DNA of 64,000 bases from Patescibacteria group bacterium (GTDB taxonomy: Bacteria; Patescibacteriota; Patescibacteriia; Magasanikbacterales; GWA2-37-8), in assembly GCA_004321885.1 (NCBI GenBank), contig SCQK01000004.1, positions 1 to 64,000 on the forward strand. The letters run 5' to 3'. Both the position numbers and the translations under genes were made by a program. Below the pieces are notes generated by a model. The model searched no databases. It was given only the letters and a program-made list of their open reading frames with translations, and was not told the origin of the DNA. Below are positions 4,358 to 5,303 of this stretch, in pieces; position 1 is the stretch's first letter, and each line of letters begins with the position of its first letter.

Positions 4358-5227
4358 TCATTTCAATTTCTTGGGCTGTTTTTTTATCGGCAAAAAATTT
4401 TTGTCAAATACCACCGACCGTCCGATGTTTCGCTCAATTTGCTTTCTGGCCGTGCCCGCGATTTGCCCGCCAACCCTGGCGTCGTCTTTTAGCCGCGACA
4501 CGCCTTGGGAATCTTTTGTTCGGTGTATTTCAGTAGTTGTTCTCTCGCCGAGCATGGTCAAAATCAGCTCAAAATCATCCATGTGGTCGCGCAAGTTGTG
4601 GCGTTTCAGGCCTTTAATTTTTTTGTATTCCGAGGGAGTAACACCAAACGTGGCTTTGGAAATTTCGGCGGTTAAGATTTCATAATCGCGCTCGTTCTCC
4701 GCGCCTCGCTTTTGCCACTCGTCGGTTAATTCCTCGCGAACGGCAATACCGCGCATTCGTTTCTCAATCCAATCCTCCGGATAGCCCTTGAGTTTGTAAA
4801 GCATTTTTGTCCGTTTGGTCGCCAATTCTGGATTTTCTATTTCCTGCACCCGCTCGTAGCCAACTTTGGCCAGCCAACGTTTTAGTGGCTCGGCTTTGGG
4901 CGATGGGATGGATTGAATTATGCGAAAAATACCTTCGGTGTCTGCGCAATCGGTTTCGCGCATTTTTCCGTCTTCAGCCAACATTTTTAACTGTTCCCAA
5001 AATGGGAACGGTTGGGCCAAGGCCCCATCGCGGTCTTTCATTTTAGCCCAGTAGGTTTTTGGTTGCGGGCTGTCTGTTAAAACACTGATAACATCCAAAA
5101 TTGAAAACCACCATTCTCTTTTGTAAATAATTTTTCTAATCGCCTTACCTTTGAATAAAGCGATGTGATGATTTGAGTTTGAATTGTTTTCGGTAGAGAA
5201 TTTTTTGGACATACTACATTTTGTCAT
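4358..5227 (-). CDS. DinD-like / Bro-N domain protein (DNA-damage-inducible protein D family; phage-associated)
   Basis: 289 aa. N-terminal Bro-N-like WWFSILDVISVL. C-terminal KGLKRHNLRDHMDDFELILTMLGERTTTEIHRTKDSQG aligns by eye with E. coli DinD KGLKKNQKILDHMGSTELAANLFRATQTEE. The start (5227-5225) lies inside the arm of the palindromic element at 5223-5303. Confidence 0.55.
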   Translation of the reverse strand: MTKCSMSKKFSTENNSNSNHHIALFKGKAIRKIIYKREWWFSILDVISVLTDSPQPKTYWAKMKDRDGALAQPFPFWEQLKMLAEDGKMRETDCADTEGIFRIIQSIPSPKAEPLKRWLAKVGYERVQEIENPELATKRTKMLYKLKGYPEDWIEKRMRGIAVREELTDEWQKRGAENERDYEILTAEISKATFGVTPSEYKKIKGLKRHNLRDHMDDFELILTMLGERTTTEIHRTKDSQGVSRLKDDARVGGQIAGTARKQIERNIGRSVVFDKNFLPIKKQPKKLK

Positions 5228-5303
5228 TGCGAGGAGTGTAACGACGAAGCAATCTCACCCATGTTTGGGATTGCTTCGCTCCTTTCAGTCGCTCGCAATG
5301 ACA
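5223..5303. repeat. palindromic element, family GTCATTGCGAG ... GAAGCAATC / GATTGCTTC ... CTCGCAATGAC
   Basis: gtcattgcgaggagtgtaacgacgaagcaatctcacccatgtttgggattgcttcgctcctttcagtcgctcgcaatgac, with nested perfect inverted repeats. Other copies at 13624-13748, 21696-21793 and a half-copy at 43441-43492. Confidence 0.8.

What the first reader, a model, noticed from the sequence alone, without database searches (positions are those of the whole stretch)
5223..5303. GTCATTGCGAG...GAAGCAATC palindromic element family: inside queA, forming the gyrB 5' extension, and overlapping the DinD-like start
The family has perfect nested inverted repeats (gtcattgcgag/ctcgcaatgac and cgaagcaatc/gattgcttcg). 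Copy 21696-21793 is an in-frame ~45-aa insert in QueA. By eye against E. coli QueA it falls between ARL.GR and VEIFLV. Copy 13624-13748 supplies the first ~54 codons of the gyrB track ORF, so the real gyrB start is probably the GTG at 13749. Copy 5223-5303 contains the ATG of the DinD-like gene. A half-copy lies at 43441-43492, at the boundary between the GT4 gene and the DUF4012 gene.
Basis: seen in the sequence. Interest (0 to 1): 0.6.

Follow-up and report, generated by a model that had tools for sequence, protein, structure and literature searches.

The report
Selfish palindromic repeat inside essential genes
A 70-120-base hairpin-forming DNA repeat of the known "CGTC-tagged REP" kind occurs four times in this Patescibacteria fragment, three times read through as extra amino acids in gyrase B, QueA and a glycosyltransferase. 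The same repeat occurs in at least ten bacterial phyla and in phage contigs, and nobody knows what moves it.

Summary
The window holds four complete copies of a nested palindrome, [T]GTCATTGCGAG...CGAAGCAATC-loop-GATTGCTTCG...CTCGCAATGAC[A], at 5223-5302, 13629-13745, 21696-21792 and 43411-43482. The last is a full copy, not a half-copy.

It is an inverted doublet of units built like the CGTC-tagged REPs of Di Nocera et al. 2013. Each unit has a [C/T]GTC tag, a stem starting AT and a CC(A) tail, and the tags point outward. That superfamily includes Rickettsia RPE-4 and RPE-6.

Copies with identical ends occur in Alpha- and Gammaproteobacteria, Bacteroidota, Chloroflexota, Planctomycetota, Cyanobacteria, Patescibacteria and other phyla, and in at least 120 viral contigs.

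- 286 copies show no target-site duplication.
- No linked transposase was found.
- Five of six copies inside genes have lengths divisible by 3.

The QueA insert is confirmed. QueA also carries a second, single REP.

The gyrB reading is wrong. ATG 13587 is the true start, because MPIKRVQKGR is conserved across the clade, and the element sits in frame in the N-terminal linker.

Best explanation: a non-autonomous selfish hairpin element, moved in trans by an unidentified enzyme, that survives only where it is tolerated. It is a new member of a known kind and of moderate interest.

The parts
5223..5302 (.). Doublet copy 1, 80 nt, the best preserved. It lies between the stop of the LamG gene (5309) and the start of the Bro-N gene (ATG 5212 or 5227).
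   Evidence: (fold -45.6 kcal/mol, z -8.2).
13629..13745 (+). Doublet copy 2, 117 nt = 39 codons, in frame in the N-terminal linker of GyrB (codons 15-53, VIARPERGR...APRND). The inner stem is degenerate and a mini-hairpin is nested at 13714-13730.
21696..21792 (-). Doublet copy 3, 97 nt, in frame inside queA (SLRMERSGMKQSLAVTNGIASSSRVLGTPHND), in the loop between ARLRGR and VEIFLV.
43411..43482 (+). Doublet copy 4, 72 nt = 24 codons, complete. It encodes the last 12 residues (VIARPKQTHAQR) and the TAG stop of the GT4 gene, and ends 9 nt before ATG 43492 of the DUF4012 gene.
20933..20960 (-). Single canonical CGTC-type REP (TGTC-ATCCTGAAC-TTG-TTTCAGGAT-CTC) in frame inside queA near the C-terminus (CHPELVSGS). 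It is part of a 17-aa insert that solved QueA structures lack.
20765..20806 (-). Single CGTC-type REP (TGTC-ATCCTGACCCCCGAC-TCA-GTCGGGGGGAAGGAT-CCC) just 3' of the queA stop. Its core is the CCCGAC...GTCGGG mini-hairpin.
17195..17221 (+). Single canonical CGTC-1-like REP (TGTC-ATTCCCGC-GCGA-GCAGGAAT-CCA), 78 nt after the gyrB stop.
   Evidence: The CGTC-1 consensus was inferred from the peptides VIPAKAGI/SFPRKRES.
25932..25963 (-). Single CGTC-type REP (TGTC-ATTCCCCCGAC-TTA-GTCGGGGGAAT-CCA) in an intergenic gap.
13587..17117 (+). gyrB host gene. The true start is ATG 13587. It also carries an intein at aa 511-936.
20826..22025 (-). queA host gene (399 aa from METSLFDY). It is 100% identical to an NCBI 'Patescibacteria group bacterium' QueA.

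Best explanation
The element is a non-autonomous, selfish palindromic repeat. It is an inverted doublet, REPIN-like, of two units built like the CGTC-tagged REPs of Di Nocera et al. 2013.

Each unit reads [C/T]GTC tag, ATTGC-GAG, a variable 5-18 nt or a small GC hairpin, CGAA-GCAAT, then a CC(A) tail. The two units face each other across a variable spacer. The whole element folds into one long hairpin made of an outer 11-12 bp stem and an inner 10-12 bp stem.

**Shown**
- The doublet together with its spacer is the unit that gets copied.
- It inserts without adding any bases: there is no target-site duplication.
- It has no transposase gene of its own or next to it.
- It occurs in many phyla and in viral contigs.

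**Inferred**
- It is moved in trans by an enzyme that recognises the folded single-stranded hairpin and its tag. The model is the HUH/Y1 transposases that move GTAG REPs and IS200/IS605.
- It travels between lineages on phages or other transferred DNA.

In this gene-dense genome, copies survive only where they do no harm. Those places are tiny intergenic gaps, gene ends, and surface loops or linkers of proteins. Inside genes, a copy survives only if its length is a multiple of 3 and its frame is free of stops. Such copies are then translated as 24-39 extra residues in GyrB, QueA and the GT4 C-terminus.
For: **Architecture matches CGTC REPs**
- Across 286 copies, base -1 is C or T in 272 and base +1 is G or A in 278. 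Flanks are complementary in 106 of 136 copies, and the tail after the first GCAAT is CCA in 66 of 136.
- The paper defines the tag (CGTC, often TGTC), a stem starting AT, a CCA tail, outward-tagged dimers, intragenic copies and no linked transposase.
- Canonical single units of the same superfamily lie in the same window.

**Wide spread**
- Both the genome scan and the viral scan hit their 120-stretch limit.
- Thirteen plasmid records also hold it.

**No target-site duplication**
- Direct repeats of 2-6 bp at offsets 0-3 are at chance level.
- The in-gene copies measure 117, 99, 72, 87 and 78 nt, all 0 mod 3. Across the first 136 copies analysed (genome loci plus window), lengths fall 48/48/40 over the three residue classes.

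**No transposase**
- tblastn with seven RAYT/TIRYT proteins found nothing in the window or in 240 loci.
- No neighbouring gene family is shared among the 120 genome loci.
- No gene of that kind lies between paired copies.

**The doublet is the copied unit**
- Bradyrhizobium copies at loci with different flanks share the spacer CCAGAATCTTTCCGCGG.
- The two L016 copies are near-identical.
- Arm tails co-vary: 114 of 228 match against 42 expected.

**Independent in-frame insertions**
- Window QueA, and QueA of L241 at a different site.
- UvrA in L045 and GuaA in L039.
- GyrB linker.
- Different reading frames are used (VIAR..., SLR...), so the conservation is in the DNA, not the peptide.
Against: - The unit's own stem has only 5 canonical base pairs (ATTGC/GCAAT), and its 'loop' is 12-18 nt. 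The four published CGTC families have 8-9 bp stems and 4-5 nt loops. The published peptide lists do not contain this family.
- No mobilising enzyme was identified. An HUH-type mechanism is an analogy, not a result.
- Only 64 kb of the source genome and 8-15 kb around each other copy were examined, so a distant transposase cannot be excluded.
- The four window copies share only the stems (60% mean column identity), so there is no sign of recent activity in this genome.
- Filled-versus-empty comparisons were possible only at 65-81% identity and did not give base-exact junctions.
- Translation of the in-gene copies is inferred from intact reading frames, not observed.
- The 97-nt queA copy is not a multiple of 3, so a flanking indel must compensate.
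Confidence: 0.72

Rival explanations
1. It is a classical MITE: a deletion derivative of a DDE-transposase insertion sequence, mobilised through its terminal inverted repeats and leaving a target-site duplication.
For: It has perfect 11-12 bp terminal inverted repeats, is small, and occurs as dispersed multiple copies.
Against: - None of 286 copies has a target-site duplication above chance.
- In-frame copies have element lengths that are themselves multiples of 3, so no bases are added.
- No insertion sequence with these ends and no shared neighbouring gene was found in 240 loci.
- A second, inner pair of conserved repeats and a conserved tail are not MITE features.
Confidence: 0.07
2. It is a functional structured RNA, or a cis-regulatory hairpin such as a terminator, an mRNA stabiliser or a processing site, kept by selection for the host's benefit.
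For: - The folds are very stable (z down to -8.2).
- Many copies sit right after genes or in short gaps between co-oriented genes.
- REPs in E. coli are known to stabilise upstream mRNA (established knowledge, also discussed in PMC3733652).
- Some inner stems carry compensatory changes, for example CGTCGCAATCC/GGATTGCGACG in L241.
Against: - There is no Rfam match beyond chance hairpin hits to miRNA models.
- The stems are conserved in sequence while the loops and junctions are free, the reverse of typical functional RNAs.
- Both strands fold equally well.
- Arm types CGAA, CGCG and CGTG pair at random, with 128 of 228 matching against 115 expected.
- Copies sit inside coding sequence in either orientation, and no T-run follows the hairpin.
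- A secondary effect on mRNA is not excluded.
Confidence: 0.1
3. It is a recombination site for a site-specific recombinase, attC-like or Xer-like: two pairs of inverted boxes that form two protein-binding sites on a folded hairpin.
For: - The anatomy is four boxes: outer box, spacer, inner box, loop, inner box, spacer, outer box.
- The outer and inner boxes share the core ATTGC/GCAAT.
- There is no target duplication.
Against: - The sequence has no attC R''/R' consensus (RYYYAAC/GTTRRRY).
- There are no cassette arrays and no integrase or recombinase gene shared among the 240 loci.
- Copies are solitary and often lie inside genes.
Confidence: 0.05
4. The inserted peptides are selected protein modules, that is, functional decorations of QueA, GyrB and GT4, and the DNA palindrome is secondary.
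For: - Reading frames stay open through three copies in the window.
- Rickettsia proteins carrying RPE-1 are reported to be expressed (quoted).
Against: - Different genes read the same DNA in different frames.
- Only 2 of 120 QueA homologues and 0 of 120 GyrB homologues carry this family.
- The insert is a low-confidence region of an admittedly poor model.
- Most copies in other phyla are intergenic.
Confidence: 0.04

Closest known systems
CGTC-tagged REP repeats, dimer form (Di Nocera, De Gregorio & Rocco 2013, BMC Genomics 14:522). The superfamily includes Neisseria dRS3 and Rickettsia RPE-4/RPE-6.
   Same: - Outer tag CGTC or TGTC, followed by a stem that starts AT, and a CC(A) tail.
- Inverted dimers with tags outward and a variable spacer whose ends are often complementary.
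- Heterodimers are common.
- Alphaproteobacteria dominate, with scattered other phyla.
- Copies lie next to gene ends, and in-frame copies occur inside genes. These include QueA of R. conorii and O. terrae, uvrA and dnaE2.
- No linked transposase.
   Different: - The unit has only a 5-bp canonical stem and a 12-18 nt interior, or an extra small hairpin. The published families have 8-9 bp stems and 4-5 nt loops.
- Only the doublet folds well.
- The family's peptides (VIARSEATKQS...LAMT/...RND) are absent from the paper's lists.
- CGTC-3 (GTCATTGCCGGG...CCCGGCAATCCA, inferred from VIAGLDPAIH) shares the first 8 and last 8 bases.
- Patescibacteria, Chloroflexota, Planctomycetota, Cyanobacteria and phage contigs are hosts the paper did not report for CGTC repeats.
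REPINs and their RAYT transposases (Bertels & Rainey 2011; Nunvar et al. 2010; named from my own knowledge and from PMC3733652)
   Same: An inverted doublet of short palindromic units forms one long hairpin. The doublet with its spacer is the unit that is copied, and there is no target-site duplication.
   Different: - The tag is CGTC, not GTAG.
- No RAYT was found nearby.
- REPIN families are restricted to a species or genus and inherited vertically. This family keeps identical ends across phyla.
Rickettsia palindromic elements, RPE-1 in particular (Ogata et al. 2000; named from my own knowledge)
   Same: Palindromic repeats inserted in frame into protein-coding genes, including essential ones. 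They are tolerated at permissive sites and are presumably translated.
   Different: RPE-1 is longer (about 100-150 bp), limited to Rickettsia and unrelated in sequence. Sequence similarity was not tested here.
Small dispersed repeats of cyanobacteria (Elhai et al. 2008; from my own knowledge)
   Same: Very small palindromic elements that nest inside one another and inside genes. In the window, the CCCGAC...GTCGGG mini-hairpin nests inside other repeats in the same way.
   Different: The sequence families differ, and this comparison was not tested here.

Membership tests
CGTC-tagged REP superfamily (Di Nocera et al. 2013) | An unpaired terminal tag CGTC (often TGTC or CCTC) at one end of each unit | tested here: met
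   All 8 half-units in the window read TGTC. Across 286 copies, base -1 is C in 187 and T in 85, and the mirror base +1 is G in 194 and A in 84.
CGTC-tagged REP superfamily (Di Nocera et al. 2013) | A stem of 8-9 bp that starts with AT directly after the tag | tested here: not met
   The stem does start with AT. Within a unit, however, only ATTGC/GCAAT (5 bp) is complementary, and GAG does not pair with CGAA. The single REPs at 17195, 20933 and 25932 do meet this feature.
CGTC-tagged REP superfamily (Di Nocera et al. 2013) | A loop of 4-5 nt | tested here: not met
   12-18 nt, or an extra GC hairpin, lie between ATTGC and GCAAT.
CGTC-tagged REP superfamily (Di Nocera et al. 2013) | A short unpaired tail fitting CCA | tested here: met
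   Among the first 136 copies analysed (genome loci plus window) the tail is CCA in 66, CTC in 24, CTT in 12 and CCC in 11. In the window it is CTC, CCC, CCC, CCC or similar.
CGTC-tagged REP superfamily (Di Nocera et al. 2013) | Mostly inverted dimers with a variable spacer, and frequent heterodimers | tested here: met
   All copies are tag-outward doublets. CGAA arms pair with CGCG or CGTG arms in 57 of 228 copies.
CGTC-tagged REP superfamily (Di Nocera et al. 2013) | No transposase gene associated | tested here: met
   The test covers only the DNA fetched, not whole genomes.
REPIN / RAYT system | A GTAG tag on each REP, and a single-copy RAYT gene flanked by REPs | tested here: not met
   The tag is [C/T]GTC. 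tblastn with 7 RAYT/TIRYT queries gave one marginal hit (E = 0.006, in L095) across the window plus 240 loci.
MITE (derived from a DDE insertion sequence) | A target-site duplication flanking the terminal inverted repeats | tested here: not met
   Direct repeats of 2-6 bp at offsets 0-3 are at chance level in 286 copies. In-frame copies add exactly their own length.
MITE (derived from a DDE insertion sequence) | A parent insertion sequence with the same terminal repeats | not tested
   None was seen in the fetched loci. The public collections could not be scanned for long elements with these ends.
Integron attC site | R''/R' core sites (RYYYAAC ... GTTRRRY), cassette arrays and a nearby integrase | tested here: not met
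   The ends read GTCATTGCGAG/CTCGCAATGAC. Copies are solitary and often intragenic, and no shared neighbouring gene exists.
Any Rfam RNA family | A covariance-model score at or above the gathering threshold | tested here: not met
   No match at gathering threshold on the elements. The only sub-threshold matches are hairpin hits to miRNA models.

The most novel reading that the evidence does not exclude
The GTCATTGCGAG doublet, and CGTC-type repeats in general, may be moved by a still unknown trans-acting system. That system adds no bases at insertion, needs no gene next to the element, and works in at least ten bacterial phyla and in phages.

Candidates are a conserved host replication or repair enzyme, or a phage-borne nuclease, acting on folded single-stranded hairpins.

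In Patescibacteria such a system would be a regular source of new protein segments in essential genes such as gyrB and queA. Through the related CCCGAC mini-hairpin, it might also add new helices to RNase P RNA.
Probability: 0.2. Interest if true: 0.7.

Novelty: new member of a known kind. Interest (0 to 1): 0.42.

Why it matters
**Annotation**
- The repeat distorts gene models in small, dense genomes. It gives the GT4 gene a false C-terminus and creates a false TTG start for the DUF4012 gene.
- Knowing the repeat lets annotators mask it.

**Biology**
- REP-type selfish hairpins, so far described mainly in Proteobacteria, also colonise Patescibacteria. There they are read through as 24-39 extra residues in essential enzymes.
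- QueA has been hit independently again and again: two sites in this clade by this family, other families in the same loops, and published cases in Rickettsia and Opitutus.

**An open question**
- It is still unknown what moves CGTC-type repeats. Near-identical ends across phyla and in phage contigs, no target duplication and no linked transposase sharpen that question.
- The family is wide enough for phylogenetic profiling to look for the enzyme.

Tried and rejected
- **Rfam.** The gathering-threshold scan of the window and two permissive scans on single copies gave only chance hairpin hits to miRNA models.
- **Literal sequence search of papers.** It returned only unrelated primers. Searches for palindromic elements in CPR/Patescibacteria found nothing relevant.
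- **Source contig look-up.** The exact QueA product is not on record.
- **AlphaFold2 model of the window's QueA.** The model is poor (mean pLDDT 56.5, pTM 0.45). It shows only that the insert (aa 86-112) has low confidence, as do many other segments, so it was not used as evidence.
- **Filled versus empty sites.** Forty spanning alignments between fetched loci were found, but at 65-81% identity and in variable intergenic spacers. Junctions could not be read to the base. A plasmid BLAST found 13 records but no useful strain pairs, and this line was dropped.
- **Target-site duplication.** None was found.
- **Linked transposase.** There were no RAYT/TIRYT hits and no neighbouring gene family shared among genome loci. 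The top clusters are phage structural genes shared by related viral contigs. The genes between paired copies in L016 and L053 are glycosyltransferases, a membrane protein and a hypothetical protein.
- **Shine-Dalgarno evidence for start codons.** This genome shows none, so it could not settle the Bro-N start.
- **Pairing selection on the inner stem.** Arm types combine at random.
- **Pfam on ten long frames spanning copies in GC-rich genomes.** Only two, UvrA and GuaA, are real genes with a copy inside. The remaining frames gave no evidence of a real gene around the copy (seven had no hit; L007 matched only a short domain far from the copy) and may be spurious open frames.
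Full report
**1. What is in the sequence**

At 5223-5302 the window reads GTCATTGCGAG-GAGTGTAACGA-CGAAGCAATCTC-ACCCATGTTT-GGGATTGCTTCG-CTCCTTTCAGTCG-CTCGCAATGAC, a perfect nested palindrome.

With one mismatch allowed, the 11-mer occurs 9 times against 1.0 expected, and no shuffle reaches 9. Eight hits pair up as the ends of four elements:
- 5223-5302
- 13629-13745
- 21696-21792
- 43411-43482

The inner 10-mer is not enriched on its own, but it lies in register in all four elements. Every copy is flanked by T on the left and A on the right.

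The copies share only the two stems, with 60% mean column identity. All fold much better than shuffled sequence, on both strands, with z from -4.6 to -8.2. A profile of the half-unit built from copies in other genomes finds these eight half-units and nothing else convincing.

**2. Source organism and host genes**

The window's QueA is 100% identical to an NCBI 'Patescibacteria group bacterium' protein. Its relatives are Candidatus Magasanikbacteria at 55-66% BLASTP identity.

Pfam identifies the neighbouring genes as follows:
- a three-domain LamG protein, 5309-7651
- a group-1 (GT4) glycosyltransferase, 42322-43449
- a DUF4012 protein
- GyrB, which also carries an intein at aa 511-936

Gene starts in this genome have no Shine-Dalgarno motif. 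Upstream regions are A/T-rich, and many genes begin ATG-NCN-AAA-AAA.

**3. Effect of each copy**

*Copy 1 (5223-5302).* It fills the gap between the LamG stop (5309) and the Bro-N start. ATG 5227 is the ATGAC end of the element. ATG 5212 lies ten bases outside it. Both have typical start contexts, so the true start is undecided.

*Copy 2 (13629-13745).* It is 117 nt, or 39 codons, inside the gyrB ORF.
- Homology to solved GyrB structures begins at residue ~60.
- About 70 of 120 close homologues begin MP[ILT][KR][KR]..., typically MPIKRVQKGRI. A K/P/A-rich linker of 10-80 residues then precedes YSAKNITVLEGLEAVR.
- The window ORF starts MPIKRVQKGRLKPP. ATG 13587 is therefore the real start, and the element is an in-frame insert at codons 15-53 of the linker.

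*Copy 3 (21696-21792).* It lies in frame in queA and encodes SLRMERSGMKQSLAVTNGIASSSRVLGTPHND, between ARLRGR and VEIFLV.
- T. maritima QueA has about 4 residues where the window has 46.
- Part of that excess is a loop (MLDE...ILN) common to the clade. About 33 residues come from the element.

*Copy 4 (43411-43482).* It is 72 nt and gives the glycosyltransferase its last 12 residues.
- The TAG stop lies in the element's loop.
- The TTG 'start' of the long DUF4012 ORF also lies inside the element, in the same frame.
- The likely true start is ATG 43492.

**4. QueA as a recurrent target**

The alignment of 20 QueA homologues shows lineage-specific inserts at four hot spots. Many carry peptide signatures of other palindromic repeats: VIPSEA...FGMT, CHSEQSEES...VQDD, CHPE[LF].SG..., SLDYARDD and PRRGRG...SLPLGKGE.

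- The window's QueA has a second insert near the C-terminus, DCHPELVSGSPVASRQA. Its DNA is a textbook single unit, TGTC-ATCCTGAAC-TTG-TTTCAGGAT-CTC. Solved QueA structures lack it.
- Forty of the 120 homologues are at least 376 aa long, against a median of 367.5.
- One homologue, P0024, carries the same GTCATTGCGAG family at a different site. On its contig (L241:10888-10986) the DNA is a 99-nt in-frame copy flanked by T and A. Its inner stem is changed on both sides, CGTCGCAATCC/GGATTGCGACG.

**5. The family outside the window**

The hosts include:
- Alphaproteobacteria, which dominate: Bradyrhizobium, Sphingomonadales, Rickettsiales, Micavibrio
- Gammaproteobacteria: Coxiellaceae, Legionellales, Solimonas
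- Burkholderiales
- Bacteroidota: Mucilaginibacter, Pedobacter, Flavobacterium
- Chloroflexota, Planctomycetota, Desulfobacterota, Cyanobacteria, Margulisiibacteriota, Zixibacteria
- one Clostridiaceae MAG
- Patescibacteria, including Berkelbacteria

The same scan of IMG/VR also hit its 120-stretch limit. Thirteen plasmid records hold the element.

Several features hold across these copies:
- Base -1 is C or T in 272 of 286 copies, and base +1 is G or A in 278.
- The three bases after the first GCAAT are CCA in 66 of 136 copies.
- Lengths run from 70 to 120 nt, with a median of 83.
- The region between the outer and inner stems is free. It is often CGAAG or GAGCGAAGCGA, and sometimes a small GC hairpin next to a CG[T/C]GGCAATC arm.

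**6. What it is**

These features match the 'CGTC-tagged REPs' of Di Nocera, De Gregorio and Rocco (PMC3733652). The paper describes:
- a CGTC tag, often TGTC
- a stem starting AT
- a CCA tail
- mostly inverted dimers with variable spacers, and frequent heterodimers
- predominance in Alphaproteobacteria, with scattered other phyla
- copies close to gene ends
- in-frame copies inside genes
- no associated transposase

The paper equates Rickettsia RPE-4/RPE-6 and Neisseria dRS3 with CGTC families. Its table of intragenic copies lists QueA twice, R. conorii RC0283 and O. terrae Oter_2037, along with uvrA, dnaE2 and polA.

The window also holds canonical single units of this superfamily at 17195-17221, 20765-20806, 20933-20960 and 25932-25963.

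The fit is not complete. In the GTCATTGCGAG family a unit can pair only ATTGC with GCAAT, and 12-18 nt lie between them. Only the doublet folds well. The family's peptides are absent from the paper's lists, and no consensus is given in the text. The figure showing the family consensus sequences is not held here. I therefore file the element as a new member of the superfamily, closest to CGTC-3, which I infer shares GTCATTGC...GCAATCCA.

**7. How it behaves**

*No target-site duplication.* Direct repeats of 2-6 bp at four offsets occur at chance frequency in 286 copies.

*Copies confirmed inside genes add exactly their own length.* They measure:
- 117 nt in GyrB
- 99 nt in L241 QueA
- 72 nt in GT4
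- 87 nt in UvrA of L045
- 78 nt in GuaA of L039

All five are multiples of 3. Among the first 136 copies analysed (genome loci plus window), lengths are spread evenly over the three residue classes. The 97-nt window queA copy is the one exception.

*No transposase was found.*
- No RAYT- or TIRYT-like gene lies in the window or in 240 loci.
- No neighbouring gene family is shared among the genome loci.
- Nothing of that kind lies between paired copies.

*The doublet with its spacer is the copied unit.*
- Bradyrhizobium copies with different flanks share one spacer.
- The two copies in Patescibacteria locus L016 are near-identical.
- The tails of the two arms co-vary, with 114 of 228 matching against 42 expected.

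*The upper inner stem is not under pairing selection.* Arm types CGAA, CGCG and CGTG combine at random.

*The conserved object is DNA, not peptide.* Three reading frames are in use: VIAR... in GyrB, GT4 and GuaA; SLR... in both QueA copies; and ...RND or ...LAMT at the ends.

**8. Mechanism**

The following steps are shown:
- a dispersed doublet is copied as a unit
- nothing is added at insertion
- no gene is linked to it
- it is present across phyla and in viral contigs
- inside genes, survivors are filtered for in-frame, stop-free copies at permissive loops, linkers and termini

The following steps are inferred:
- mobilisation in trans by an enzyme that recognises the folded single-stranded hairpin and its tag, by analogy with the HUH/Y1 transposases of GTAG REPs and IS200/IS605, which also leave no duplication
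- transfer between lineages on phages

Effects on mRNA are possible but untested. The rival explanations fit the tests less well. These are a classical MITE, a functional RNA, an attC-like recombination site and a selected peptide module.

**9. Verdict**

- right about the family and the QueA insert
- wrong about the gyrB start and the 'half-copy'
- undecided for the Bro-N start

The element is a new member of a known kind.

It has three points of interest. This kind of repeat has not, in the literature I could search, been described in Patescibacteria. It decorates essential proteins there. And the family's cross-phylum, phage-associated spread without a known mobilising enzyme sharpens an old open question.

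Noticed in passing
window 37950-38408 (RNase P RNA, minus strand): 37983-37999, 38061-38075, 38191-38205, 38374-38388: The bacterial class A RNase P RNA (131.8 bits) contains four copies of one 15-17-nt mini-hairpin, CCCGAC-(TAA|GTTAC)-GTCGGG. Eight more copies lie elsewhere in the window, mostly nested inside other repeats (1775, 7757, 13714, 20777, 25940, 26360, 36380, 36473). Either a mobile mini-hairpin has replaced helix tips of an essential ribozyme, or the resemblance is coincidental.
   Followed up: partly
window 13587-17117, aa 511-936 of GyrB: gyrB carries an intein about 425 aa long (Pfam Intein_splicing, CFFGST...VHNS) with a large lysine-rich middle region. The gene therefore hosts two selfish elements, the intein and the palindromic doublet.
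   Followed up: partly
window 13433-13586, 22028-22157, 31151-31249, 32007-32093: Long, imperfect, AT-rich palindromes built from AATTTCCAATGACCAAT-like words sit in intergenic regions upstream of gyrB, queA and other genes. Related peptides (NPKSEIRNPKQI) appear in the GyrB linkers of homologues P0121, P0134 and P0143. This may be a promoter-region repeat family.
   Followed up: no
window 1702-1806, 7740-7790, 26345-26390, 36364-36542, 41585-41672: Another palindromic family, CGCTGGCTCCATAGTC / GACTATGGAGCCAGCG, usually wraps a CCCGACTNAGTCGGG mini-hairpin. Several tandem copies lie at 36364-36542.
   Followed up: no
window 12711-12790: A pair of TCCCTCCCCTATTAGGGGAGGGA palindromes. The same motif appears as PRRGRG...SLPLGKGE inserts in the QueA loop of homologues P0007 and P0077.
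   Followed up: no
window 61251-61314: A DUF3800-II RNA motif (Rfam RF02961, 67 bits against a gathering score of 43.2).
   Followed up: no
window 23838-23911: A tRNA-Ile gene with a TAT anticodon, which reads AUA without lysidine. This is uncommon in bacteria.
   Followed up: no
window 43411-43494: The GT4 and DUF4012 reading frames are the same frame. They are separated only by the single TAG codon that lies in the loop of the element. Deleting the 72-nt element would fuse the two ORFs in frame.
   Followed up: partly
L139, L141, L151, L158, L172, L186, L206 and other IMG/VR loci: Many viral contigs that carry the element are related to one another at 65-80% DNA identity and share phage structural gene clusters. 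They may be prophages or gene-transfer-agent-like regions of Alphaproteobacteria rather than free phages.
   Followed up: partly
L067 2729-2849 (Sphingobacterium sp.): Four tandem GTCATTGCGA(G/A/C) half-ends precede one complete copy, which suggests local slippage or abortive copying at the element end.
   Followed up: no
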